The notes below the pieces were generated by a model, which was given only the letters and a program-made list of their open reading frames with translations, searched no databases and was not told the DNA's origin. The position numbers and the translations under genes are program-made. From an uncultured Clostridium sp. (lineage in GTDB: Bacteria > Bacillota > Clostridia > TANB77 > CAG-508): DNA of 64,000 nt. Numbering within the stretch: position 1 is the stretch's first letter; each line of letters opens with the position of its first letter. The stretch lies in assembly GCA_947426525.1 (NCBI GenBank), contig CANEEJ010000001.1, positions 23,617 through 87,616 of the forward strand, read 5' to 3'. This document shows positions 1,137 through 62,332 of the stretch, piece by piece.

Positions 1137-1180
1137 AAAAATGAGACACTTAAGACCTGTCCCCAACCGTCTCATTTTTG
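1137..1180. repeat. GGGAC-core palindromic element, A-family: aatgagac..gacctgtcccc..gtctcatt. It is followed by a T-run and probably acts as the trxA terminator.
   Basis: Perfect 8-bp inverted arms aatgagac/gtctcatt flank the gacctgtcccc core; the same element recurs at 31780, 38545, 40548, 51671 and 60281. Confidence 0.8.
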
Positions 1181-5729: not shown

Positions 5730-6722
5730 ATGTCGTTTATTGAGGAAATAAAACAAAGAGCGAAAAAAGAAATTAAGACAATTGTTCTTCCTGAAGCAGA
5801 AGATATTAGAATTTTACAAGCAACAGAGCAAGTACTAAAAGAGCAATATGCGAATATTGTATTAGTAGGAAATCAAAAAAATATAGAAAAAAAGGCAGAA
5901 GAAAATCATTTGAACATTAAAGATGCTAAAATTATAGATCCATCAACTGCTGAAGAATATGAAAAATATGTTAATTTATTATATGAATTAAGAAAACATA
6001 AAGGAATGACAATAGAAAAAGCACAAGAATTAGTAAAAGACCCTGTTTATTATGGAATGCTTATGGTAAAAGAGGGAAAAGCAGATGGACTTGTTTCTGG
6101 TGCAGTTCATTCTACTTCAGATACATTAAGACCAGCCCTGCAAATATTAAAAACGGCACCTGATACAAAACTAGTTTCTGCTTTTTTTGTTATGGTAGTT
6201 CCAGACTGTGAGTATGGAGAAAAAGGAACATTTGTATTTGCAGATAGTGGTCTTAACGAAAATCCAGATGCAGAGAGCTTGTCAGAAATAGCCATTTCTT
6301 CTAGTAAAAGTTTTAGACAATTAGTAGAAAAAGAACCAAAGGTAGCGATGCTTTCTTATTCAACTTATGGAAGTGCAAAATCAGAATTGACAGAAAAAGT
6401 GATAGAGGCAACCAATTTAGTTAAACAAAAAGACCAAAATATTTTGGTAGATGGAGAGCTTCAATTGGATAGTGCGATTGTTCCAGAAGTTGCTCAATTA
6501 AAGGCTCCTAATAGTCCTTTAAAGGGGGAGGCAAATGTATTGGTGTTTCCAGATTTGAATACAGGAAATATTGGTTATAAGTTGGTGCAAAGATTGGCTA
6601 AGGCAGAGGCTTATGGTCCTCTTTGCCAGGGAATTAGTAAACCTGTGAATGATTTGTCTAGAGGTTGTAGCTGGGAAGATGTGGCAGGGGTTGTTGCAAT
6701 TACTGCTGTGCAAGCTCAGTAA
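5730..6722 (+). CDS. pta: phosphate acetyltransferase (or butyryltransferase)
   Basis: 330 aa PTA_PTB-family protein (GDSGLNENP..., SRGCS motif), sitting upstream of two acetate/butyrate kinase genes. Confidence 0.8.
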   Translation: MSFIEEIKQRAKKEIKTIVLPEAEDIRILQATEQVLKEQYANIVLVGNQKNIEKKAEENHLNIKDAKIIDPSTAEEYEKYVNLLYELRKHKGMTIEKAQELVKDPVYYGMLMVKEGKADGLVSGAVHSTSDTLRPALQILKTAPDTKLVSAFFVMVVPDCEYGEKGTFVFADSGLNENPDAESLSEIAISSSKSFRQLVEKEPKVAMLSYSTYGSAKSELTEKVIEATNLVKQKDQNILVDGELQLDSAIVPEVAQLKAPNSPLKGEANVLVFPDLNTGNIGYKLVQRLAKAEAYGPLCQGISKPVNDLSRGCSWEDVAGVVAITAVQAQ

Positions 6723-6744
6723 AATTAATGAAAATCAGCATCTT

Positions 6745-6822
6745 GCACATTTTCGCTCTTAATTACAAACCTTGATGTACCCTCGTACACCTTCGGCTTG
6801 TAATTAAGATTGAAAATGCACA
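6745..6822. repeat. long imperfect palindrome (about 78 bp) between pta and ackA
   Basis: An outer stem tgcacattttc/gaaaatgcaca, an inner 11-bp perfect stem cttaattacaa/ttgtaattaag and a small gtac..gtac hairpin; no clean U-run follows. Confidence 0.5.
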
Positions 6823-6921
6823 ATATACTAATTTTGATTAATTTTATAATCAAATGAAAAGCTTCGTTTTATTGTGTTATTAAAAATAATAAAATTTTAG
6901 ATGAAAAGGAGGGACTAGATT

Positions 6922-10164: not shown

Positions 10165-10460
10165 AATACAATAAATAAAAGAGAAAAACGATAACAAGGA
10201 CACGATAAATAATATAATATCTTAAAGAGAGCCAAAGGGAGCTGGAAATTTGGTAAGTAAAAATTATTTATTATCACCTTATAAGTTGTTAGACTGAAAT
10301 TTTGGTTAAAAGAAGATTAAGTTTAACCGTATCTCCTGCGTTAAAGGAAAATGAAGAGAGTAAATAAATTTACTAAAATAGGTGGTACCGCGGAATCAAA
10401 AGCTATTTCGTCCTAATTAATCAGTTACATTGATTAGGATTGAAATAGCTTTATTTGTAT
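10165..10460 (+). promoter_or_regulatory. T-box riboswitch leader with terminator/antiterminator
   Basis: A sigma-A-like promoter (ttgcaa-N17-tataat at 10135-10161) starts the leader. The conserved T-box motif aaataGGTGGTACCGCGg is at 10377-10394, overlapping the terminator hairpin aaagctatttc...gaaatagcttt plus a T-run (10399-10455). An AGAGA-containing stem I region is present. Confidence 0.6.
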
Positions 10461-10536
10461 TAAAACAAATGAAAAGCAATACTTTTGATTTGTTTTATAA
10501 AAATAAAAAAGGAAAGAAAGAGAGGAACATGAAAAA

Positions 10537-10782
10537 ATGAGAGAACTAAAAATTAATGGAGTTTACAAACACTTTAAAGGAGACTACTATATCGTAGAAA
10601 ATGTAGCAACATTTAGTGAAACAAGAGAAAAACTAGTAATCTATCGTGGATTATATGGAAACAATGAACTATATGCTAGACCATATGAAATGTTCTTATC
10701 AGAAGTAGACCACGAAAAATATCCAAACGTAGAGCAAAAGTACAGATTTGAACTACAAGAAATCGAAAGCAAAAACAAATAA
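10537..10782 (+). CDS. DUF1653 family small protein
   Basis: 81 aa; the GxY.HFKG.YY.V....F.E.....V.YR.LYG motif is typical of DUF1653. It lies between the T-box leader and ileS. Confidence 0.55.
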
Positions 10783-10790
10783 ATTCTTCT

Positions 10791-10895
10791 GATGTTTTTT
10801 GGGACGGGGTCAAAAAACATCGGGTTAAAAAGTTATTAAAAAAAGAATATAGAAAATTTAAGACGATGTTTTTTGACCCCGTCCCAAAAAACATC
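10791..10895. repeat. B-family MITE-like element: two inverted copies of the hairpin gatgtttttt-GGGACGGGGTC-aaaaaacatc around a 42-bp spacer
   Basis: Copy 10791-10821 and its reverse complement 10865-10895. An identical architecture recurs at 62220-62332. Confidence 0.85.
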
Positions 10896-10909
10896 AGGAA
10901 GGAAGGAAA

Positions 10910-13900
10910 ATGTACAAAAAAGTAGAATTGAAAAATGGATTTGTTGGCATGGAGAAAGAGGTTGCTGAGAATTGGAAGAAAAAAGACATTATTAAAAAGA
11001 ATTTTGCTATGAATGAAGGAAAAAGATATTTTACCTTTTATGATGGACCACCAACAGCAAATGGAAAGCCACATGTGGGGCATATTGAAACTAGAGTTAT
11101 GAAAGATATTATCCCAAGATATAAAGTTATGAAAGGATACCAAGTAATTCGTAAAGCTGGATGGGATACACATGGTCTTCCAGTAGAGCTTGAAATTGAA
11201 AAGAAATTAGGTATTTCAGGAAAAGAGCAAATTGAAGAATATGGCGTAGAAAAGTTTGTAAAAGAATGCAAGGAAAGTGTGTTTACCTATGTTTCTATGT
11301 GGGAAGAAATGACAAACAAAGTAGGTTTTTGGGTAGATATGGAACATCCATATGTTACGTATCATAACGAATATATCGAATCTGTATGGTGGGCTTTAAA
11401 ACAAATGTGGGATAAAGGACTTTTATATGAAGGTCATAAAGTTATGCCATATTGCCCAAGATGTGGAACAGCATTATCTTCTCATGAGGTAGCACAAGGA
11501 TATAAAGATGTAAAAGATTTAACTTGTATTGCTAAATTCAAAGTAGTAGATGAAGATAAATACATTCTAGCTTGGACAACAACACCTTGGACATTGCCTT
11601 CTAACTTAGCTCTTTGTGTTAATAAATCTTATGAATATGCAGAAGTGAAAGCTAATGTTGGAACTGATGATGAACCACAATATGAAACTTATATTTTAGC
11701 CAAAGATTTATTAGAGGCAGTTTTAAAAGAAACTCCTTATGAAGTAATCAAAACATTCAAAGGAGAAGAATTATTAGGAACCAAATATGAAAGATTGATG
11801 CCATGGGGCGAAGTGGAAGGAAAAGCCTTTGAAGTGATTCATGGTGACTATGTTAATCTTGATGATGGTACAGGAATTGTTCATATTGCACCAGCTTATG
11901 GTGAAGATGATAGCTTGGTATCAAAACAAAATGGAATTACTTTTATCAATCTAGTTGATAAAGCAGGAAACTTTGTAAAAGAAGTAGAACCTTGGGCAGG
12001 AAGATTTGTAAGAGATTGTAACGAAGATATCTGCAAATGGTTAAAAGAAGAAAATAAATTATTTAGCAAAGAAAAACACCTACACTCTTATCCACATTGC
12101 TGGAGATGTGACACACCACTTCTATACTATCCAAAAGAAAGCTGGTTTGTTGCTATGAGCAAACTAAGAGATGAATTAGTAGCTAATAACAACAAAGTAA
12201 ATTGGAACCCAGACACCATCCGAACAGGAAGATTTGGAAAATTCCTAGAAAATGTAATTGACTGGGGAATTTCAAGAGATAGATATTGGGGAACGCCATT
12301 ACCAGTATGGACTTGTGAAGATGAAAATTGTCGTCATCAAGAATGTATCGGTTCAATTGAAGAATTGAAAGAAAAAGGAATCGAAGTTCCAGAAAATATT
12401 GAATTACACAAACCATATATTGATGATGTAGACCTAAAATGTCCTAAATGTGGTAAAAAAATGCACAGAGCAAAAGAAGTAATTGATTGTTGGTTTGACT
12501 CTGGTTCTATGCCTTTTGCACAATGGCATTATCCATTTGAAAATAAAGAAATGTTTGACAACAACTTCCCAGCAGGATTTATTTCAGAAGCAGTTGACCA
12601 AACAAGAGGATGGTTCTATACTTTAACAGCAATAGGAACAGCATTATTTGGAAGAACACCATTTGAAAATTGCATTGTATTAGGACACGTTTTAGATGAA
12701 AAAGGTCAAAAAATGTCTAAATCCAAAGGAAATGGTGTAGACCCAATGCAATTATTAGACACAGTAGGAGCAGATGCAACTAGATGGCATTTTTATACTT
12801 GTAGTGCTCCATGGTTACCAACAAGATTAGGATTAAATAATGTACAAGAAACACAAAGAGGATTTTTAAGCACATTATGGAATGTATATTCTTTCTATGT
12901 GTTATATGCTGAAATAGACCAATTCAATCCATTAAAATATGCTAATTTTGAGGCAACTAATATTATGGACAAATGGATTATTTCAAAATTAAATACATTA
13001 GTAAAAGAAGTAGATGAAAAATTAGAACACTATGACATTACAAATGCAGCATTATTGATTGAAAGCTTTACTGATGAACTTTCTAACTGGTATGTACGTA
13101 GAAACAGAGAAAGATTCTGGTTAACTGAGTTAAATAATGAAAAAATTGGAGCATATTGTACCCTATATCGTGTATTAACAACTTTAATAAAAGTAGCAGG
13201 GCCATTTGTACCATTTATGGCAGATGAAATCTATCAAAACTTAGTAGTAGGATTAGACAACCAAGCTCCTGAAAGTGTTCACTTATGCTTATGGCCAGAC
13301 GTAAATGAAAAAGAAATCAATAAAGAGTTAGAAGCAGAAATGGATTTAGCTTATAAAATAGTAAAACTTGGACGTGGAGCAAGAAATGTAGCTAATATTA
13401 AAAATAGACAACCATTATCTAAAATGTTAATCTCAATTGACACTTTACCAGAATATTATGCAGACATTGTAAAAGAAGAACTAAACGTAAAAGAAATTAA
13501 CCTAGGAGCAGAAATGTCAGACTATGTTAATTTTGAAATCAAACCAAATCTACCAGTATTAGGAAAAGAATATGGAAAATTAATTCCAAGAATTAAACAA
13601 GCAATTAGTGAAAAAAATCAAATGGATTTAGCTAATACGGTAAAAAATGGCGGTGTAGAATACATTGAAATTGATGATACACAAATTGCTTTAAATGCAG
13701 ATAACTTGCTTATTACAATGCAAGGAAAAGAAGGTTTTGCTTTTAGTGGTGAAGGAGAAATGGGTGTAGTATTAGATACTCATATTTCGCCAGAACTAAA
13801 AGAAGAAGGACAGGTAAGAGAAATTTTGTCTAAAGTACAAAATATGAGAAAAGACAAAGGATTTGAAGTGCTAGACAATATCCATCTTTATGTAGCTGGA

Positions 13901-14056
13901 AACGAAATGCTGGAAGAAATTATTAAAAAGAATGAAGAATTTATTAAACATGAAACATTAGCAGTTGAAGTTATTTACAATAAAGATAGAACGTCTTATA
14001 CAGAAACTAACATCAATGGCGAAATGTTAAAGGTTGATGTAGAAGTAGTAAAATAA
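10910..14056 (+). CDS. ileS: isoleucyl-tRNA synthetase
   Basis: 1048 aa, with an HIGH-type motif (PHVGH), KMSKS and zinc-finger C-terminal motifs. A T-box leader lies upstream. Confidence 0.95.
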
Positions 14057-16804: not shown

Positions 16805-17750
16805 ATGAAAAACAAAAATAAAAAAATACAAATTACAGTAGGAATAATAGCGACTATAGTATTATTAATTTTAATTTTGTGTGGAGCTAATACAGAGATA
16901 TTAAACCAAGTTAGTAAGGTCGCAGGATTAAACATTGTATTTGAAAATAAACAACAAGAAGCAGAAACAGCAACAACAACTGGAGAATTTATTGCAGAAG
17001 ATAAGCTAAAAGTGTATTTTATTGATGTAGGTCAAGCAGATAGTATTTTAGTTATGAATCAAAAGGAAAGTATGTTAATTGATGCTGGCAATAATGAAGA
17101 TGGAGAAGAAGTGGTAAAATTCATACAAGAAAAAGGAATTAAAAAGTTAAATCATGTGATACGGAACTCATCCACATGAAGACCATATAGGTGGGCTAGA
17201 TGATGTAATTAACAACATTGAGATTGAAACTATTTATATGCCAAAAATCGAGACAACAACAAAAACTTTTGAAGATGTATTAGATGCTATTCAAGGCAAA
17301 AACTTAAAAGTAACAGCACCAACAAAGGGAAAAACTTTTAAAGTAGGGGAAGCAAATTGTGAAGTGATGACAGACTCTATATTAGACAAAGAAAACCTGA
17401 ATTTATCATCCATTATTGTTCGATTAGAATTTGGGAATACTAGTTTCCTATTTATGGGAGATGCTGAAAGCAAAAATGAGAAAACGAGACAATGGCCTAA
17501 AACAGATGTGTTAAAAGTAGGACACCATGGTTCCAATACAAGTACAAGTGAGAATTTCTTAAAACAGGTATCACCACAATATGCAGTCATTATGGCTGGA
17601 AAAAATAATAGTTATGGATTACCAAAAGATAAAATTTTAGAAAGATTAAAAAAGAAAAATGTTACGATTTATCGAACAGATGAAAAAAGAACCATTGAAA
17701 TGACATCAGATGGAAACAAAATTGAAACGGGATTTGGGGACGTCCCTTAA
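16805..17750 (+). CDS. secreted MBL-fold hydrolase (ComEC C-terminal-like). The frame breaks at an in-frame CGG near 17162-17164.
   Basis: Removing the C before GG restores the HVIGTHPHEDHIGGLD metallo-beta-lactamase motif, and the +1 frame then runs uninterrupted into ORF 17238..17750 with no further stop. An N-terminal signal-anchor is present. Confidence 0.7.
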
Positions 17751-18503: not shown

Positions 18504-20051
18504 ATGATTATGAACATAGTAATCATAATCGCCGCTGTCTTAATCTCATTAGCAATCGGTAGCGTATTTGGAATAGCATACCGCAAAAAAGTTGCAGAGT
18601 CTAAAATTCAAGGAGCAGAAAATGAAGCAAAAAGACTAGTTGATTTAGCGAAAATAGAAGCAGAAAATTTAAAGAAAGAAGAAATTTTCAAAGCCAAAGA
18701 AGAAATCATGAATAGTAGGAAAGAGTTAGATCAAGAGATTAAAGAAAGAAGAGGCGAAGTACAAAAACAAGAATCTAGATTAATCCAAAAAGAAGAAAAT
18801 CTAGAAAAACGTGAAGGGAATTTCGAAAGAAAAGAACGTGAATTAGAAAGAGAGATGCAAGAAGTAGAAAAACAAAAAGAAGAAATTTCAAAATTACATG
18901 ACGAAGAAATGGTACAACTTCAAAAAATAGCTTCTTTAACACAAGAAGAAGCAAAAGCACAATTGCTATCTGAAATGGATAGACAATTAACAGCTGAAAA
19001 AGCAGCGTTAATTCGTGAAAAAGAGCAAAAGGCAAAAGAAACAGCCATTAAAAATGCGAAAGAAATTCTAAGCTATGCCGTACAAAAATGTGCAGCAGAC
19101 CATTCACAAGAAACTACCGTATCTATTGTAGCACTTCCAAATGATGATATGAAAGGAAGAATTATAGGTAGAGAAGGTAGAAACATAAAAGCATTAGAAA
19201 CCTTAACAGGAATCGACTTAATCATTGATGATACACCAGAAGCAGTCGTTTTATCAGGATTTGACCCACTAAGAAGAGAAGTTGCTAAAATTGCATTAGA
19301 AAAATTAATTGATGATGGAAGAATCCATCCAGCAAAAATCGAAGAAATGGTTGAAAAGGCAAAAGAAGAAGTAGAAACAACCATCAAAGAAGAAGGAGAA
19401 AGAGCAGTTTTAGAAACTGGTGTTATTGGACTTCATCCAGACATTGTAAAACTAATTGGAAAATTAAAATATAGGACAAGTTATGGTCAAAACGTATTAA
19501 ATCACTCAATTGAAGTTTCTAACCTAGCAAGAATTATGGCAGAAGAATTAGGATTAGATCCAAAACTAGCAAGAAGAGCTGGACTTTTACATGATATTGG
19601 AAAAGCACTAGACCATGATATGGAAGGAACACACGTTGAAATAGGAGTAGAGGTTCTTAAAAAATTCAAAGAAAATCCACTTGTTATCAATGCTGTAGAA
19701 GCACACCATGGTGATGTAGAACCACAAACTTTAGAAGCAGTTTTAATCCAAGCAGCAGATGCGATATCAGCATCAAGACCAGGAGCTAGAAGAGAAACTG
19801 TAGAAGCTTATATCAAGAGATTACAAAATCTTGAAGAAATAGCAGACTCTTTTGAAGGAGTTGAAAAATCATTTGCTATTCAAGCTGGTAGAGAAGTAAG
19901 AATTATTGTAAAACCAGACAGAATATCAGATGATAAAATGACAATCTTAGCAAGAGATGTTTCTAAGAAAATTGAAAATGAAATGGATTATCCAGGTCAA
20001 ATAAAAGTAAATATCATTAGAGAGACAAGAGTAGTTGATTATGCAAAATAA
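18504..20051 (+). CDS. rny: ribonuclease Y
   Basis: N-terminal TM helix, coiled-coil, KH and HD domains (LLHDIGK); an intrinsic terminator follows at 20052-20085. Confidence 0.95.
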
Positions 20052-20165
20052 AAATAGAGGCTTAAAGTAGGCCTCTATTTTTTTGTGTAAAAGTATTGTT
20101 AACTAATTTAAGTAATGTTATAATAAAGGAGGAACAATTAAATAAATTTATAAGGAGAGATACAA

Positions 20166-21098
20166 ATGTTAAAGAAATTTTTAATTAGTTTATGGATTAT
20201 CATGATTATAGTATGCACAACATTTAGTTATGCTACTAATGTTAAAGTAACAAATGAGAACTTAAATGCAGCTTTTCAAAAATATGTGTCATCAGATGCT
20301 AATACGATGGGATATGAAATATCAGTAGCAGATAATATTATTAATATTAATGTTAATAATGAGGAATATAAATTAAATTATGATTTAACGGATAAACCGA
20401 CTTTTTCGATGACTATTCCAATTGAAAAAGGAATGGAATACCAAGAATTTAAAAATCAAACTAGTAATTTGATTTTACCTATGCTTGGTTATATAGCAGT
20501 AACCGATATTCAAGGAGTAGAGCTAGAAGATGCTAGCGAATATTTTTTGATGACCTATCTAAATAATGCTTTAAAGGGAGATGTAACAAGTAAAAATTCT
20601 TATATTATTATTGATGATGTTAATTTAGAAGATGGTGTTACAATTGATAAAACTGAAAGCAGTGATCAAATTATCTATGTTTCTGAATTTGGAGAAAGAG
20701 TAATGGAATATGTAAATGCTACTTATAAAGATAAACAAATAATTAGAGATGCCTCAGATGAAGAAATTAATTCTTACGAATATACAGTTGAGAGAAAAGA
20801 AGTAACAGATACATCTTGTGAAATTGTAGCAACACTAAGTGTAAATCTTGATGCGGACTTTTCGAAACTAAATGGATATAGTGATCAAGAAAAGGACGAT
20901 ACTCCTGCTAAAAAAGATGATAACACTATTGTTCAAGACAATAAAATGAATAACGGTAATGTAAATAATGATAAAACTACTTCAAAAACTGTTTTACCCA
21001 AAGCAGGTATGAATAATATTGTTTGTATGATATTATTTTTCAGTGTGGTTTTAGTAGTTGTATTTATTGTTAAATTAAAAAAATATAAAGATGTATAA
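20166..21098 (+). CDS. cell-wall-anchored surface protein with an LPKAG sorting signal
   Basis: Signal peptide; the C-terminus has LPKAG, then a hydrophobic stretch and a KKYK tail, which is a sortase substrate layout. Confidence 0.55.
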   Translation: MLKKFLISLWIIMIIVCTTFSYATNVKVTNENLNAAFQKYVSSDANTMGYEISVADNIININVNNEEYKLNYDLTDKPTFSMTIPIEKGMEYQEFKNQTSNLILPMLGYIAVTDIQGVELEDASEYFLMTYLNNALKGDVTSKNSYIIIDDVNLEDGVTIDKTESSDQIIYVSEFGERVMEYVNATYKDKQIIRDASDEEINSYEYTVERKEVTDTSCEIVATLSVNLDADFSKLNGYSDQEKDDTPAKKDDNTIVQDNKMNNGNVNNDKTTSKTVLPKAGMNNIVCMILFFSVVLVVVFIVKLKKYKDV

Positions 21099-21107
21099 CA
21101 TTTTTTA

Positions 21108-21896
21108 ATGGAAAGAAGGAATACCATGAAAATATTAGCTATAGGAGACTTAATTGGAAATGCTGGTATCAAAGAATTAAAAAAGCAACTAGCAGACATA
21201 AAGAAAAAAGAAGAAATAGATTTTGTTATTGTAAATGGAGAAAATTCAGCAGAGGGAATGGGTTTAACAGAAGCAAATTTTAAAGATATCCTAGCAATGA
21301 ACATTGATGTTATTACCATGGGAAACCATACTTGGGGAAAAAAAGACATTTTTAAATTTATAGACCATCCAAAATTAATCCGTCCAGCCAATTATCCTAA
21401 AGGAGTAGTAGGAAAAGGATATAACATTTATACCTGTCAAAATAAAAAAATAGCAGTGATTAATTTAATAGGAAGAGTAGATATAAATGTACTTTCTGAA
21501 AACCCATTTATTACTGTCAAAGAAATTGTTGAAAAAATCAAAAATAAAGTAGATATGATTTTTGTGGATTTTCATGCAGAAGCAACTGCAGAAAAAATTG
21601 CAATGGGTTACTTCTTAGATGGAAAAGTTACAGCTGTGTATGGAACCCATACACATGTACAAACAGCAGATGAAAAAATTCTGCCAAACGGAACAGGCTA
21701 TATAACAGATATTGGAATGACAGGACCAAAACATTCTGTTATTGGAATGGACATAGCAGCATCTTTAAAGAGATTTGAGACCACTTTACCAGAGAGATAT
21801 CGAATAGCAACTGGTGAATGTATATTAAATGGTGTGGTATTTGAAGTAGACGAAATAAATAATAAGGTAAAAAGTATAAAAAGATTGTACCAATAA
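21108..21896 (+). CDS. ymdB: YmdB-family metallophosphoesterase (2',3'-cyclic-nucleotide phosphodiesterase)
   Basis: Conserved rny-ymdB synteny; GDLIGNAG and GNHTW motifs. Confidence 0.85.
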   Translation: MERRNTMKILAIGDLIGNAGIKELKKQLADIKKKEEIDFVIVNGENSAEGMGLTEANFKDILAMNIDVITMGNHTWGKKDIFKFIDHPKLIRPANYPKGVVGKGYNIYTCQNKKIAVINLIGRVDINVLSENPFITVKEIVEKIKNKVDMIFVDFHAEATAEKIAMGYFLDGKVTAVYGTHTHVQTADEKILPNGTGYITDIGMTGPKHSVIGMDIAASLKRFETTLPERYRIATGECILNGVVFEVDEINNKVKSIKRLYQ

Positions 21897-51148: not shown

Positions 51149-51677
51149 GTGATGTGTATGTTTTTTTTGAAGGAATTAAAAGAAGATGCTAACAATATAA
51201 AAGAAAAAGACCCTGCTTGTAGAAATATATTAGAAGCAATTGTTTTATATCCAGGGTTTCATATTCTTGTTTTTCATAGAATAGCACATTTCTTATATCG
51301 CCATAAATGGTTATTCTTAGCCAGATTAATTTCACAAATTGGAAGATTTTTTACGGGAATTGAAATTCATCCAGGAGCTAAAATTCGGGAGACGATTGTT
51401 TATTGACCATGGGATGGGAATTGTTATAGGAGAAACTGCAACAGTAGGAAATGACTGTACAATTTATCACAATTCAACATTAGGCGGGACAGGAAAAGAT
51501 AAATATAAAAGACATCCTGATATTGGAAATAATGTTATGGTAGGAGCGGGAGCAAAGGTGCTTGGACCTATTAAAGTGGGAAATAACGTGAAGATTGGGG
51601 CAAATACAACAGTATTAAAAAATATACCAAACAATGTTACAGTAGTTAGATGCAATCAAATTGTAAATAAGAAATGA
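51149..51677 (+). CDS. cysE: serine O-acetyltransferase. The frame breaks at an in-frame CGG near 51386-51388.
   Basis: ORFs 51149..51406 and 51339..51677. Removing the C gives ...[22 protein letters not shown] with hexapeptide repeats. Confidence 0.8.
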
Positions 51678-51785
51678 GACGGTGGGGACAGGTCTTAACT
51701 GTCTCATTTTTTGTTTTCTAATAAAATAAATTTTGCTAAAATATAAAAATGAGACAGTTAAGACCTGTCCCCACCGTCTCATAAA
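51671..51785. repeat. A-family MITE-like element: a 34-bp hairpin (atgagacggtggggacaggtcttaactgtctcat) and its exact reverse complement around a 39-bp spacer
   Basis: 51673-51708 versus 51748-51783 are perfect reverse complements. The stop codons of the convergent cysE and OPRT-like genes lie in the arms. Confidence 0.85.
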
Positions 51786-59806: not shown

Positions 59807-60292
59807 ATGTGTGAATGTGGATGTGAAGAAAACAAAAAAGACAAATTTATAGAAGAACTTTTTTTAGAATACAAGCCAATTAAAGATAATTTGATACAAA
59901 TGTTAAATGAAATACAAGAGCATTATGGATATGTACCAATGGATGTTCAAAAAGAACTATCCGAATTTTTATCCATTCCAATGGCAGAAATTTATGGAGT
60001 AGTTACCTTTTATTCCAGATTTTCTTTAAAACCAAAAGGAAAATACAACATATCTGTATGTTTAGGAACCGCTTGTTATGTAAAAGGTTCACAAAAAATA
60101 ATGGACCGATTACTAGAAAGACTAAAAATTGAGCCAGGAGAAACAACAGAAGATGGTATGTTTTCCATTGAAGAAACTAGATGTGTAGGAGCTTGTGGGT
60201 TAGCGCCAGTATTTACAGTAAATGGAGAAGTATATGGAAAAGCTACTGTTCAAAAGCTAGACCAAGTATTAGATGAGTTAATGAGACAGTAG
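59807..60292 (+). CDS. NuoE-like 2Fe-2S thioredoxin-fold subunit of a bifurcating [FeFe]-hydrogenase (HydC/HndA)
   Basis: CLGTACYVKG....RCVGACGLAP cysteine pattern. Confidence 0.85.
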   Translation: MCECGCEENKKDKFIEELFLEYKPIKDNLIQMLNEIQEHYGYVPMDVQKELSEFLSIPMAEIYGVVTFYSRFSLKPKGKYNISVCLGTACYVKGSQKIMDRLLERLKIEPGETTEDGMFSIEETRCVGACGLAPVFTVNGEVYGKATVQKLDQVLDELMRQ

Positions 60293-60352
60293 GGACAGGT
60301 CTCATCTGTCTCAAATGAGACAAAATAGACCTGTCCCCAGTGTCTCAAAAGG
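60281..60352. repeat. composite A-family element between the hydrogenase cistrons; its 3' end gtctcaaaaggagg supplies the RBS of the NuoF-like gene
   Basis: atgagacagTAGggacaggtctcatctgtctcaaatgagacaaaatagacctgtccccagtgtctcaaaagg. The TAG stop of the upstream gene lies in the element. Confidence 0.85.
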
Positions 60353-60361
60353 AGGATTTTT

Positions 60362-62221
60362 ATGAAAACAACAAAAGAACTTCAACAAATTAGAGAAGAG
60401 AAAAGAAAAGAACTAGATTTAAGGGTTAATACAAAAGCAGATACAAGAGAAAAGCATATCCTAGTTTGCCAAGGGACAGGATGTACATCGTCTAAGTCGC
60501 CAGAAATATTAGATACGTTTAAGAGAATTATAAAGGAAAAAGGAATTGAAAATGTAAGGGTGATTAAAACAGGTTGTTTTGGACTTTGTGCGAAAGGTCC
60601 TATTGTAATTATTAGACCAGAAGATACTTTTTATGCTATGGTAAAACCAGAGGACTGCGAAGAAATTATACAAACACATATTATGGAAGGGAACAAAGTA
60701 GAAAGATTATTAGCAAAAGATATTGATGGGACTAAGGTAAATCGCTTAGATGATTTGAATTTTTATAAAAAACAAAAGAGAATTGCTCTTAAAAATTGTG
60801 GGATTATTAATCCAGAAAATATTGATGAATATATTGCTTTTGACGGTTATCAGGCATTAGAAAAAGTATTAACTAAGATGTCTCCAAATGAAGTAATTGA
60901 AGAAATTACAAAGTCAGGGATACGTGGTAGAGGTGGAGCTGGTTTTCCAACTGGCAAGAAGTGGGAATTAACAAAGGATTCAGAAGGAAAACAAAAATAT
61001 GTAGTATGTAATGCTGATGAAGGAGATCCGGGGGCTTTTATGGATAGAAGTATCTTAGAAGGGGATCCTCATTCAGTGCTAGAAGCTATGGCGATTGCTG
61101 CTTATTGCATTGGAGCAGACAAAGGATATATTTATGTAAGAGCAGAATATCCAATTGCTGTAAAGCGTTTGGAAATTGCTATTAATCAAGCAAGGGAATA
61201 TGGCTTATTAGGAAAGCATATTTTTGATACCGATTTTAATTTTGATATTGAAATAAGATTAGGAGCAGGAGCTTTTGTTTGTGGAGAAGAAACAGCCCTT
61301 TTAGAGTCTATTGAAGGAAAACGTGGTCAACCACGTGTAAAACCACCATATCCAGCACAAGAAGGATTATGGGGAAAACCAACTTTAATTAACAATGTAG
61401 AAACTTATGCCAATATAGCACAAATTATTTTAAAAGGAAGCGAATGGTATTCTTCTATTGGAACCGAAAATTCAAAAGGAACCAAGGTATTTGCTTTAGG
61501 TGGAAATGTTAACAATATTGGACTTGTAGAAGTACCTATGGGAACTACATTACGAGAAATTGTATATGACATTGGTGGAGGTATTCCAAATGGAAGAGAT
61601 TTTAAAGCAGCACAAACAGGAGGACCTTCTGGTGGATGTATTCCAAAAGAGCATTTAGATACGCCAATCGACTATGAATCCTTAAAAGAAATTGGTTCCA
61701 TGATGGGATCAGGTGGATTGATTGTTATGGATGATACAAAATGTATGGTATCGCTTGCAAAATTCTACCTAGAATTTACAGTAAGTGAAAGTTGTGGAAA
61801 ATGTACACCTTGCCGTATTGGAACTAAAAGAATGCATGAAATATTAGAAAAATTATGCAATGGAGAAGGAACCGAACTAGATATTTATAAACTAGAAAAG
61901 CTAGCTAGCAATATTCAAAAAGCTAGTATCTGTGGACTAGGACAAAGTGCACCAAATCCAGTTATTAGCACTTTAAAATATTTTAGAGAAGAATTTAAAG
62001 AACATGCCATTGACAAAAACTGTAGAGCCTTAGAATGTAAAGCAATGTCTAAAATTACAATCAATGAAGAAAAATGTAAAGGATGCGGTTTGTGTCAAAA
62101 ATCTTGTCCAGTTAACGCTATTCAAGGAGAAGCAAGAGAAAAGCGTGTAATAGACCAAGAAAAATGCATTAAATGTGGTACATGTTTAGCAAGCTGTCCA
62201 TTTAAAGCAATTGGCAACTGA
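60362..62221 (+). CDS. NuoF-like NADH-binding FMN/Fe-S subunit (HydB/HndC)
   Basis: N-terminal 2Fe-2S domain, an FMN/NADH-binding core (GRGGAGFPTG), and C-terminal 2x[4Fe-4S] CxxCxxCxxxCP motifs. Confidence 0.9.
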   Translation: MKTTKELQQIREEKRKELDLRVNTKADTREKHILVCQGTGCTSSKSPEILDTFKRIIKEKGIENVRVIKTGCFGLCAKGPIVIIRPEDTFYAMVKPEDCEEIIQTHIMEGNKVERLLAKDIDGTKVNRLDDLNFYKKQKRIALKNCGIINPENIDEYIAFDGYQALEKVLTKMSPNEVIEEITKSGIRGRGGAGFPTGKKWELTKDSEGKQKYVVCNADEGDPGAFMDRSILEGDPHSVLEAMAIAAYCIGADKGYIYVRAEYPIAVKRLEIAINQAREYGLLGKHIFDTDFNFDIEIRLGAGAFVCGEETALLESIEGKRGQPRVKPPYPAQEGLWGKPTLINNVETYANIAQIILKGSEWYSSIGTENSKGTKVFALGGNVNNIGLVEVPMGTTLREIVYDIGGGIPNGRDFKAAQTGGPSGGCIPKEHLDTPIDYESLKEIGSMMGSGGLIVMDDTKCMVSLAKFYLEFTVSESCGKCTPCRIGTKRMHEILEKLCNGEGTELDIYKLEKLASNIQKASICGLGQSAPNPVISTLKYFREEFKEHAIDKNCRALECKAMSKITINEEKCKGCGLCQKSCPVNAIQGEAREKRVIDQEKCIKCGTCLASCPFKAIGN

Positions 62222-62332
62222 TGTTTTTTGGGACGGGGTCAAAAAACATCACCTTTTATAATCTTAGGACGAATGAGAAAGAGAAGAAGTAAAAAATAAG
62301 CGATGTTTTTTGACCCCGTCCCAAAAAACATC
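62220..62332. repeat. B-family MITE-like element (gatgttttttGGGACGGGGTCaaaaaacatc and its inverse) between the NuoF-like gene and hydA
   Basis: Same architecture and near-identical sequence as 10791-10895. The TGA stop of the upstream gene overlaps the element's first bases. Confidence 0.85.

What the first reader, a model, noticed from the sequence alone, without database searches (positions are those of the whole stretch)
62220..62332. A second MITE-like family (B-family, GGGACGGGGTC loop) present as two near-identical inverted-pair elements of about 110 bp, upstream of ileS and upstream of hydA
The elements at 10791-10895 and 62220-62332 are almost identical. Each is a 31-bp perfect hairpin, gatgtttttt-GGGACGGGGTC-aaaaaacatc, followed by a spacer of about 40-48 bp and then the exact inverse of the hairpin. 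Both end just upstream of the RBS of a large, highly expressed gene. One sits between the T-box/DUF1653 unit and ileS; the other sits between hydB and hydA.

The loop core GGGAC(G/A)GG is shared with the A-family and with the C-subfamily (tggtcaaNttGGGACAGGCa at 27821 and 42935). Several isolated GGGGACGTCCC or GGGACACCCC terminator hairpins (781, 4260, 8120, 17737, 22323) also carry the GGGAC motif.

This suggests one superfamily of structured elements built around a GGGAC recognition core. It could be a target for a transposase, a nucleic-acid-binding protein or a restriction-like system. I cannot identify a cognate protein in this window.
Basis: seen in the sequence. Interest (0 to 1): 0.65.

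Follow-up and report, generated by a model that had tools for sequence, protein, structure and literature searches.

The report
REP-like hairpin repeats with transposase partner
The two "elements" are pairs of a 31-base hairpin repeat scattered through the genomes of a group of uncultured gut Clostridia. In related genomes the same hairpin flanks a single-copy REP-type tyrosine transposase gene, so this is a new member of a known class of small mobile DNA, not a new kind of system.

Summary
GATGTTTTTTGGGACGGGGTCAAAAAACATC occurs four times in the window (0 expected), as two inverted pairs. One pair lies between DUF1653 and ileS, the other between hydB and hydA, and each ends just before the ribosome-binding site.

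The repeated unit is the 31-nt hairpin, not a 110-bp element. The spacers (43 and 51 nt) are unrelated. In a relative about 90% identical, both hairpins are intact while the spacers are scrambled.

The hairpin occurs at least 156 times in 109 loci from about 20 Clostridia genome assemblies. One stem pair covaries, and each genome has its own stem variant. Pairs almost always have the same polarity (45 to 1).

The window holds no cognate protein, but related genomes do. There, a 250-260 aa Y1 HUH transposase is flanked by this hairpin, (+) upstream and (-) downstream. It matches Pfam Y1_Tnp and NCBIfam REP-associated tyrosine transposase, and its nearest solved structure is E. coli TnpA-REP (4ER8). 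All six lineages fetched by protein alone carry GGGAC-bearing inverted repeats around the gene.

This fits the published TIRYT/TIRtron class, whose terminal repeats share GGGGWSAS. The window's A family (GGGGACAG) fits that consensus exactly.

Verdict: a REP/REPIN-like repeat family, a new member of a known kind.

The parts
10791..10821 (+). B-family hairpin unit, 31 nt, GGGACGGGGTC on the + strand. It starts 8 nt after the DUF1653 stop codon.
   Evidence: Exact match. Unit boundaries. Intact apart from a 1-nt deletion in the 5' arm in the ~90%-identical relative L109.
10822..10864 (.). 43-nt A-rich spacer of the ileS doublet. Not conserved.
   Evidence: 21 nt and a different sequence in L109. 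No similarity to other spacers. No promoter-like site.
10865..10895 (-). B-family hairpin unit in inverse orientation. It ends directly before the ileS Shine-Dalgarno sequence (ATG at 10910).
62220..62250 (+). B-family hairpin unit. Its first two bases are the GA of the hydB TGA stop codon.
   Evidence: 31/31 identical in L082.
62251..62301 (.). 51-nt spacer of the hydB-hydA doublet. Not conserved.
   Evidence: Scrambled, with indels, against L082. No promoter-like site.
62302..62332 (-). B-family hairpin unit in inverse orientation. It ends 3 nt before the hydA Shine-Dalgarno sequence (ATG at 62348).
60282..60347 (.). A-family doublet between hydC and hydB: hairpins at 60282-60313 (+) and 60316-60347 (-), 2 nt apart. 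The first hairpin supplies hydC's last three codons (MRQ) and its TAG stop.
   Evidence: Both hairpins identical in L082, with a spacer of 2 nt in the window against a longer, unrelated AT-rich one in L082.
38548..38615 (.). A-family doublet: 38548-38580 (+) and 38583-38615 (-).
51675..51781 (.). Two A-family hairpins, 51675-51706 (+) and 51750-51781 (-), between convergent genes.
40552..40584 (+). A-family single hairpin after a gene end.
31783..31814 (-). A-family single hairpin.
1142..1174 (-). A-family single hairpin.
27823..27855 (+). C-family hairpin, ATGGTCAA..GGGACAGGCA..TGACCAT.
42938..42970 (+). C-family hairpin.
25706..25770 (-). Two GGGACAGG motifs 36 nt apart in direct orientation, with a small hairpin between them. 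Here the motif is at the foot of a hairpin, not in the loop.
   Evidence: The same 34-36-nt direct spacing recurs in other loci.

Best explanation
The B-family hairpins are REP-like extragenic palindromes, and their inverted pairs are REPIN/BIME-like doublets. They belong to a repeat family tied to a single-copy REP-associated-type Y1 (HUH) tyrosine transposase of the TIRYT/TIRtron kind.

Shown:
- The unit is a sharply bounded 31-nt hairpin.
- It is dispersed in many copies through the genomes of a clade of uncultured gut Clostridia.
- One stem base pair covaries, and each genome has its own stem variant.
- Orthologous intergenic sites are filled in some lineages and empty in others.
- In related genomes the same hairpin flanks the transposase gene with the same (+)...(-) polarity as the doublets.
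- GGGAC-bearing inverted repeats flank this gene family down to 43% protein identity.

Inferred:
- The transposase binds the hairpin when it folds in single-stranded DNA, for example at a replication fork. It reads the GGGAC(R)GG motif and cuts and rejoins the strand, as E. coli TnpA-REP and IS200/IS605 TnpA do. This spreads and homogenises the hairpins.
- Copies persist only in the few tolerated bases between a stop codon and the next Shine-Dalgarno sequence. That would explain why the two pairs sit exactly there.
- The A and C families are sister families using the same motif, possibly with a paralogous transposase.
- Once transcribed, a doublet would form a 31-bp duplex just upstream of the ribosome-binding site. 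Any effect on the hyd or ileS mRNAs is secondary and untested.
For: Repeat family:
- 4 of 4 identical copies in the window, 0 expected.
These hold 156 copies.
- Boundaries are sharp at -10/+20 around the motif. Stem position 9 is A:T, C:G or G:C, with 120 Watson-Crick and 20 G-U pairs of 156.
- Genome-specific variants: GATG..CATC in 19 of 22 CAMNWO copies, GGTG..CACC in 17 of 18 CANRFX copies, and GCTG..CAGC as the commonest form in CALXCH (10 of 23).
- Doublet polarity is +- 45 against -+ 1.

Mobility:
- Filled against empty orthologous sites: L052/L026 vs L019/L042, L005 vs L021, L033 vs L090.
- A decaying copy in L026.
- Among 80 hydC relatives, the hydCBA intergenic regions are either short stop-SD-ATG gaps (14-31 nt) or carry other GGGAC-type elements. 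The B doublet is present only in the window and its ~90%-identical relative.
- A mixed B(+)/A-like(-) pair follows ileS in L046.

Maintenance:
- Against the ~90%-identical relative, all six B and A hairpins are identical apart from one 1-nt deletion, while the spacers are scrambled.

Cognate protein:
- ORFs of 254-260 aa in L030, L043, L047 (the nearest relative of the window) and L079.
- Pfam Y1_Tnp, E = 8e-14. NCBIfam REP-associated tyrosine transposase, 78.4 bits against a cut-off of 80.
- Invariant NH.H and Y-I-H-x-N-P motifs.
- AlphaFold model with pLDDT 86. Best PDB match is 4ER8, TnpA-REP bound to a REP hairpin (E = 4e-7, TM 0.70), followed by IS608 and ISDra2 TnpA.
- Flank anatomy is hp(+), 70-100 nt, gene, 14-77 nt, hp(-).
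- Six of six protein-based fetches, which carry no hairpin ascertainment bias, show GGGAC-bearing inverted elements around the gene.
- DUF378/ABC-F-transposase-Tex synteny is kept down to 46% identity, which indicates single-copy vertical inheritance.

Literature:
- TIRYT genes are flanked by terminal inverted repeats sharing GGGGWSAS, some self-complementary and arranged in dimers (PMC3733652).
- TIRYTs correspond to TnpA-Y1 subclass 2.1 (PMC6006769).
- The A family's GGGGACAG fits GGGGWSAS exactly.
Against: - The window's own genome was not available, so its transposase gene was not seen. tblastn finds none in the window, and two exact-protein look-ups found no matching contig.
- No biochemical evidence exists for this protein family. 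Cleavage sites and the role of the loop motif are inferred.
- Doublet spacers are not homologous, unlike classical REPINs. So it is unclear whether the doublet or the single hairpin is what gets copied, and the 45:1 polarity is not mechanistically explained.
- The canonical 5' GT[AG]G foot of REPs is absent.
- The B motif matches GGGGWSAS at only 6 of 8 positions.
- In L079 the upstream flanking hairpin is inverted.
- Perfect conservation at orthologous sites could reflect host-level selection and not transposase activity.
Confidence: 0.8

Rival explanations
1. Host cis-regulatory RNA module. The doublet is transcribed within the operon, folds into a 31-bp duplex (an RNase III-type substrate) or into two stabiliser hairpins, and uncouples the stability or translation of the upstream and downstream cistrons. 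This would be its primary, selected function.
For: - The doublets lie between co-directional genes, including both junctions of hydCBA, so they are probably co-transcribed with them.
- Perfect 31-bp duplex, -58 kcal/mol.
- The (-) hairpin ends 0-7 nt before the Shine-Dalgarno sequence in 26 of the 33 hairpins that abut a gene start. The (+) hairpin starts within -3 to +14 nt of the stop codon.
- Hairpins are perfectly conserved while spacers drift.
Against: - Many relatives have plain 14-31-nt stop-SD junctions in the same operon, so the module is dispensable.
- The same unit occurs as singles after terminal genes and around the transposase gene.
- A 31-nt identical sequence at more than 100 loci needs a copying mechanism.
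- There are no expression data.
- This reading is compatible with the main explanation as a secondary, co-opted role.
Confidence: 0.12
2. Intrinsic (bidirectional) transcription terminators or insulators that happen to share sequence.
For: - The consensus scan flags the B hairpins as terminator-like.
- A-family units carry A-runs on the 5' side and T-runs on the 3' side, and sit after gene ends and between convergent genes.
Against: - B stems are almost all A-T.
- A T-tract follows only 67 of 156 copies on the GGGAC strand against 57 of 156 on the other strand.
- The doublets sit inside operons (hydCBA), where termination would be harmful.
- This reading does not explain the flanking of the transposase gene.
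Confidence: 0.04
3. A classical MITE: a deletion derivative of a DDE-transposon with 31-bp terminal inverted repeats, moved as a ~110-bp unit.
For: - Inverted 31-bp ends with fixed polarity.
- Filled sites differ from empty sites by roughly the whole doublet.
Against: - The internal sequence is not conserved, even within one genome.
- Spacers range from 2 to 61 nt.
- No target-site duplication is seen.
- Many single units and mixed A/B pairs exist.
- The associated gene is a Y1 HUH enzyme, not a DDE transposase.
Confidence: 0.03
4. An invertible promoter switch: inverted repeats recombined by a site-specific recombinase to flip the spacer.
For: - Perfect 31-bp inverted repeats directly upstream of genes.
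- Each arm resembles a recombinase site, with symmetric arms around an asymmetric core.
Against: - Spacers of 2-61 bp are too short and too variable.
- No promoter-like hexamers lie in either spacer.
- No recombinase gene is adjacent.
- Single copies are common.
Confidence: 0.01

Closest known systems
TIRYT / TIRtron systems (Di Nocera et al. 2013, PMC3733652), equated with TnpA-Y1 subclass 2.1 by Quentin et al. 2018 (PMC6006769)
   Same: - A RAYT-like Y1 transposase, longer than classical RAYTs, with a C-terminal extension.
- The gene is flanked by inverted repeats carrying a GGGGWSAS-type motif. The A family's GGGGACAG fits exactly.
- Copies of the flanking repeat are dispersed in the genome, some self-complementary and arranged in dimers.
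   Different: - The host is an uncultured clade of gut Clostridia.
- The motif sits in the loop of a perfect hairpin.
- Density is high: 16 units in 64 kb of this window.
- The B motif (T)GGGACGG departs from the consensus at 2 of 8 positions.
- Quentin et al. found no REP-like structures next to subclass 2.1 genes.
- Subclass assignment was not tested against reference sequences.
REP / BIME / REPIN elements with RAYT (TnpA-REP) of Enterobacteria and Pseudomonas (PMC2817692, PMC3116915, PMC3479197)
   Same: - Short extragenic palindromes in high copy.
- Inverted doublets able to form long hairpins.
- A single-copy, vertically inherited Y1 transposase gene flanked by its own repeats.
- Genome-specific repeat variants.
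- The structural best match is 4ER8.
   Different: - No GT[AG]G foot.
- Stems are A-T rich, not G-C rich.
- Doublet spacers are not conserved.
- The protein scores just below the NCBIfam cut-off (78.4 against 80 bits) and has an extra ~100-aa C-terminal domain.
IS200/IS605 insertion sequences and their gene-less derivatives
   Same: - Y1 HUH fold.
- Hairpin ends recognised in single-stranded DNA.
- No target-site duplication.
   Different: - The gene is single-copy and syntenic (ABC-F-gene-Tex), not multi-copy.
- No tnpB.
- The ends are inverted, not in the same orientation.
- The Y motif is Y---NP (class 2), not the class 1 type.
Intercistronic RNase III processing hairpins (for example phage T7 early mRNA)
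   Same: A long duplex between cistrons, ending just before the next ribosome-binding site.
   Different: This is a resemblance only. No processing data exist here, and these elements are repeated mobile DNA.

Membership tests
REP/RAYT (REPtron) | Short extragenic palindromes in many copies per genome | tested here: met
   Sixteen hairpin units in the 64-kb window.
REP/RAYT (REPtron) | Conserved GT[AG]G tetranucleotide at the 5' foot of the hairpin | tested here: not met
   The foot is G[A/G/C/T]TG (GATG, GGTG, GCTG, GTTG). The conserved motif lies in the loop.
REP/RAYT (REPtron) | A Y1 HUH transposase gene with HuH and Y---NP motifs, flanked by the same repeats | tested here: met
   Met in related genomes only. 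Fold match to 4ER8. The window's own genome was not available.
REP/RAYT (REPtron) | NCBIfam NF047646 equivalog score at or above the cut-off | tested here: not met
   78.4, 68.1 and 56.7 bits against a cut-off of 80. A related family, not an equivalog.
REPIN | Inverted doublet of fixed polarity able to form a long hairpin | tested here: met
   +- 45 against -+ 1. 31-bp duplex.
REPIN | Doublet copied as a unit, with spacer length and sequence conserved among copies | tested here: not met
   Spacers of 2-61 nt with no similarity beyond shuffled controls.
TIRYT/TIRtron | RAYT-like gene flanked by terminal inverted repeats | tested here: met
TIRYT/TIRtron | GGGGWSAS motif in the flanking repeats | tested here: inconclusive
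   The A family's GGGGACAG fits 8 of 8. The B family's TGGGACGG fits 6 of 8. L112 and L195 have GGGGACGG, 7 of 8.
TIRYT/TIRtron | C-terminal HTH / DnaA_C-like domain (subclass 2.1) | tested here: inconclusive
IS200/IS605 | Multi-copy element carrying its own transposase, often with tnpB | tested here: not met
   One gene per genome in a conserved ABC-F-gene-Tex context. NCBIfam IS200 model scores 18-22 bits against a cut-off of 55.
Classical MITE | Terminal inverted repeats plus target-site duplication plus conserved internal sequence | tested here: not met
   Only the inverted ends are present.
Known Rfam RNA families | Match at gathering score | tested here: not met
   Only the T-box passes. 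At E <= 1 there are only far sub-threshold microRNA-precursor hairpin models.

The most novel reading that the evidence does not exclude
This clade of gut Clostridia hosts a long-lived REPIN-RAYT-like partnership of the poorly understood TIRYT / subclass 2.1 branch, for which no REP-like partner had been found. The recognition motif would be displayed in a hairpin loop, so that several stem families share one enzyme. The doublets would have been co-opted as precise intercistronic modules, set between stop codon and ribosome-binding site, that the host keeps under selection. They would also donate stop codons and C-terminal residues to genes such as hydC and hydB.
Probability: 0.2. Interest if true: 0.6.

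Novelty: new member of a known kind. Interest (0 to 1): 0.4.

Why it matters
REP/RAYT systems are well studied in Proteobacteria. The TIRYT / subclass 2.1 branch has no biochemistry and, according to the 2018 survey, no recognisable REP-like partner.

This clade provides a clear substrate-enzyme pair: a 31-nt hairpin with an invariant loop motif and a 250-260 aa enzyme. That makes the recognition rule directly testable.

It also explains a large share of the intergenic repeats in these small, AT-rich gut genomes. It warns annotators that hairpins next to ribosome-binding sites and stop codons here are repeat copies, not gene-specific regulators. These repeats are also a plausible cause of contig breaks in metagenome assemblies of these genomes, though that was not tested here.

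Tried and rejected
- Exact-protein look-ups for the window's HydC and DUF1653 found no contig, so the source genome could not be extended.
- Rfam at gathering threshold found only the T-box. The permissive Rfam search gave only sub-threshold microRNA-like hairpin hits.
- Terminator reading: the T-tract test showed no strand bias worth noting, 67 against 57 of 156.
- Invertible-promoter reading: no promoter-like site in either spacer.
- MITE-as-unit reading: spacer-to-spacer alignments were no better than shuffles.
- SECIS, DNA-uptake-sequence, KOPS, attC and recombinase-site readings were considered from memory. They were dropped because the units occur in both orientations, after all three stop codons, as singles, and around a Y1 transposase gene.
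It was redone with database proteins.
- Comparison with L002 at window position 20051-21111 gave no clean empty site, because a whole gene differs there.
- The 'isolated GGGAC hairpins' were examined and could not be tied to the family.
Full report
**1. The observation**

The 31-mer GATGTTTTTTGGGACGGGGTCAAAAAACATC is present exactly four times: 10791-10821 (+), 10865-10895 (-), 62220-62250 (+) and 62302-62332 (-). No matches appeared in 100 dinucleotide-preserving shuffles (sequence read).

Each copy is a 10-bp stem around an asymmetric 11-nt centre. It folds at -11.0 or -9.5 kcal/mol as RNA and about -8 as DNA. Each inverted pair can instead form a perfect 31-bp duplex: -58 kcal/mol as RNA with z = -8.9, and -42 kcal/mol as DNA with z = -12.2.

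A T-box lies at 10182-10418, followed by DUF1653 (10537-10782) and IleRS (10910-14056). The second locus holds NuoE-like HydC, NuoF-like HydB and the [FeFe]-hydrogenase HydA, which starts at 62348.

Both pairs end 0-3 nt before a Shine-Dalgarno sequence. The spacers are 43 and 51 nt and share nothing, so the two 'elements' are identical only in their arms.

**2. The GGGAC core**

GGGACRGG occurs 19 times against 0.40 expected. Seventeen occurrences are intergenic. Sixteen of them lie on the 5' side of the loop of hairpins with different stems:
- ten A-family units (TGAGACrGT..GGGGACAGGTCT..GTCTCA);
- four B units;
- two C units (ATGGTCAA..GGGACAGGCA..).

There is also a tandem pair at 25706-25770 where the motif sits at the foot of a small hairpin.

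GGGAC/GTCCC is the second most enriched intergenic 5-mer after the Shine-Dalgarno sequence: 23 observed against 3.3 expected in 10 kb of intergenic DNA, and only 14 in 54 kb of coding DNA.

**3. The family outside the window**

Almost all come from about 20 genome assemblies labelled uncultured Clostridia or Clostridium, from animal and human guts. These loci hold 156 copies.

The nearest relative is CAMNWO01. It is about 90-91% identical to the window over about 20 kb.

Aligned on the motif, conservation stops sharply at -10 and +20, so the unit is exactly 31 nt. Stem position 9 covaries, being A:T, C:G or G:C, with 120 Watson-Crick and 20 G-U pairs of 156.

Each genome has its own dominant stem variant:
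- GATG..CATC in 19 of 22 CAMNWO copies and 4 of 4 in the window;
- GGTG..CACC in 17 of 18 CANRFX copies;
- GCTG..CAGC as the commonest form in CALXCH (10 of 23).

Orthologous sites carry the variant of their own genome (L003/L080 against L092).

**4. Arrangement**

Nearby motifs are almost always in one inverted polarity: +- 45 times, -+ once.

With the GGGAC strand as reference, the 5' side of a unit abuts one of two things:
- the stop codon of a same-strand gene, within -3 to +14 nt in most of 76 cases and often overlapping it;
- the Shine-Dalgarno sequence of an opposite-strand gene, 0-7 nt away in 26 of 33 cases.

A doublet is therefore stop - hairpin(+) - spacer - hairpin(-) - Shine-Dalgarno.

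Thirty B doublets have spacers of about 20-61 nt. These spacers are no more alike than shuffled sequences. Mixed pairs exist, such as B(+) with A-like(-) after ileS in L046.

**5. Conservation and turnover**

Against the ~90%-identical relative, both B doublets and the A doublet keep their hairpins intact, with one 1-nt deletion among six units. Their spacers are scrambled or differ in length: 43 against 21 nt, 51 against 45 nt, and 2 nt against a longer, unrelated AT-rich spacer.

At greater distances, sites are filled in some lineages and empty in others. L052 and L026 are filled while L019 and L042 are empty; the same holds for L005 against L021 and L033 against L090. L026 also shows a decaying copy.

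In L046 ileS follows its T-box directly, with neither DUF1653 nor the doublet.

Among 80 metagenomic relatives of hydC, the two hydCBA junctions take two forms. Some are plain 14-31-nt stop-SD-ATG gaps. Others are occupied by different GGGAC-type elements, again with GTCCC next to the Shine-Dalgarno sequence and GGGAC next to, or fused with, the stop codon. The B doublet at hydB-hydA is confined to the window and CAMNWO.

No target-site duplication is visible.

**6. The partner protein**

In L030, an ORF of 259 aa lies between a (+) and a (-) B hairpin. Homologues lie in the same setting in L043, L047 (CAMNWO) and L079.

The evidence that this is a REP-type Y1 transposase is:
- Pfam Y1_Tnp at E = 8e-14.
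- NCBIfam 'REP-associated tyrosine transposase' at 78.4 bits against a cut-off of 80, and the IS200 model only weakly.
- Invariant NH.H and Y-I-H-x-N-P motifs in fifteen homologues, which is the class 2 signature, plus a conserved helical C-terminal ~100 aa with no Pfam match.
- An AlphaFold model with pLDDT 86, whose best solved match is 4ER8, E. coli TnpA-REP bound to a REP hairpin (E = 4e-7, TM 0.70). IS608 and ISDra2 transposases follow.
- By sequence alone the 4ER8 match is weak, E = 0.083.

The family has 457 members at E <= 1e-5.

Six lineages were fetched by protein only, so they carry no ascertainment bias for hairpins. All six have GGGAC-bearing inverted elements, (+) 70-210 nt upstream and (-) downstream:
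- B hairpins in L110/L111;
- GGTGTTTTTGGGGACGGAGGAAAAAAACACC in L112/L113;
- non-hairpin 20-mers AGGGACGCCCTTCAAAAT in L114;
- further variants in L195, L196 and L197.

The gene sits in a conserved position, directly after an ABC-F ATPase gene or with a dCMP deaminase gene between them. DUF378 lies upstream of ABC-F and Tex downstream of the gene in most of the lineages fetched. This context holds down to 46% protein identity, which indicates single-copy vertical inheritance.

A more distant paralogue in L009 is followed by two C-like units. This hints that each stem family may have its own enzyme.

The window itself encodes no such protein.

**7. Comparison with the literature**

Di Nocera et al. 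2013 described RAYT-like genes flanked by terminal inverted repeats, which they called TIRtrons and TIRYTs. Many of these repeats share the motif GGGGWSAS. Some are self-complementary, dispersed in moderate numbers and arranged in dimers (PMC3733652).

Quentin et al. 2018 equate TIRYTs with TnpA-Y1 subclass 2.1. These are long proteins with a C-terminal helix-turn-helix-like domain, and the authors found no REP-like structures near the genes (PMC6006769).

Bertels et al. 2017 note Group 1 RAYTs in Clostridia with low flanking-repeat abundance (PMC5581495).

The A family's GGGGACAG fits GGGGWSAS exactly. The B family's TGGGACGG fits 6 of 8 positions. The canonical GT[AG]G foot of REPs is absent. 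The REPIN property of a conserved spacer is also absent.

**8. Mechanism**

Shown: a repeat family with structural covariation, lineage-specific gain and loss, and a physically linked Y1 transposase gene whose flanks carry the same motif across deep divergence.

Inferred from the biochemistry of TnpA-REP and IS200/IS605 TnpA: the enzyme recognises the hairpin in single-stranded DNA, reads the GGGAC(R)GG motif, and cleaves and rejoins the strand. This would disseminate and homogenise the units.

Three things remain unexplained:
- the 45:1 polarity of pairs;
- the lack of spacer homology;
- the perfect conservation at orthologous sites.

That conservation could reflect enzyme-driven homogenisation or host selection. 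The position between stop codon and Shine-Dalgarno sequence is most simply explained as the only tolerated space in a compact genome.

An RNA-level role for the 31-bp duplex, in processing, stability or translation, is possible but untested. B units are not convincing terminators. No promoter lies in the spacers.

**9. Verdict**

The sequence observation is confirmed. It is partly wrong: the element is not a 110-bp near-identical MITE.

It is a new member of the REP/RAYT-TIRYT kind in an uncultured clostridial clade. Its interest is moderate, mainly as a clean substrate-enzyme pair for an unstudied branch of Y1 transposases.

Noticed in passing
window 60282-60313 and 62220-62222: Repeat units supply coding sequence. 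The 5' arm of the A hairpin plus the TAG of TAGGGAC encodes the last residues (MRQ) and the stop of hydC. The GA of hydB's TGA stop is the first two bases of the B hairpin, whereas the relative L082 uses TAA two bases upstream of the hairpin.
   Followed up: partly
window 10182-10910 compared with L046 6780-6870: In the window and in CAMNWO, a DUF1653 gene and the B doublet lie between the isoleucine T-box leader and ileS. In L046 the T-box terminator is followed directly by ileS. In the window's arrangement the T-box therefore governs DUF1653 first.
   Followed up: partly
window 787, 8121, 17738, 17774 (+ strand): A ~28-nt motif, GGGATT(T)..GGGAC[GA][TC]CCCTTNAAAA, occurs four times in the window and not at all in 785 kb of related loci. 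It resembles the 20-mers flanking the transposase gene in L114. However, the copy at 17738 lies at the 3' end of the long ORF 17238-17750, and the orthologous sequence in L002 lacks GGGAC.
   Followed up: partly
L116, L118, L128, L138 (hydC-hydB or hydB-hydA junctions) and L109 5130-5275: Another small repeat family (..GAACCGGCACCAAATGCCAAAATGGCAAAAG.., with variants containing GGTCCC) fills the same intercistronic gaps in other lineages, often in tandem.
   Followed up: no
window 20051-21111 compared with L002 1059-1292: A 310-aa gene (window 20166-21098) is absent from the ~90%-identical relative. That relative has instead a 233-nt segment with a different terminator and a single B hairpin.
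   Followed up: no
window 6720-6846: A 52-nt imperfect inverted repeat (83% complementary, 23 nt apart) lies between two genes. It is unrelated to the GGGAC families.
   Followed up: no
L197 6826-12126: In this lineage about 5 kb has been inserted between the transposase gene and Tex, including genes with resolvase and Bro-N domains nearby. The downstream (-) hairpin lies 3 kb away inside that stretch.
   Followed up: no
L079 6198-6611 and L110 4416-4697: In two lineages a dCMP/cytidine deaminase-family gene lies between the ABC-F gene and the transposase gene, with B hairpins on both sides of it.
   Followed up: no
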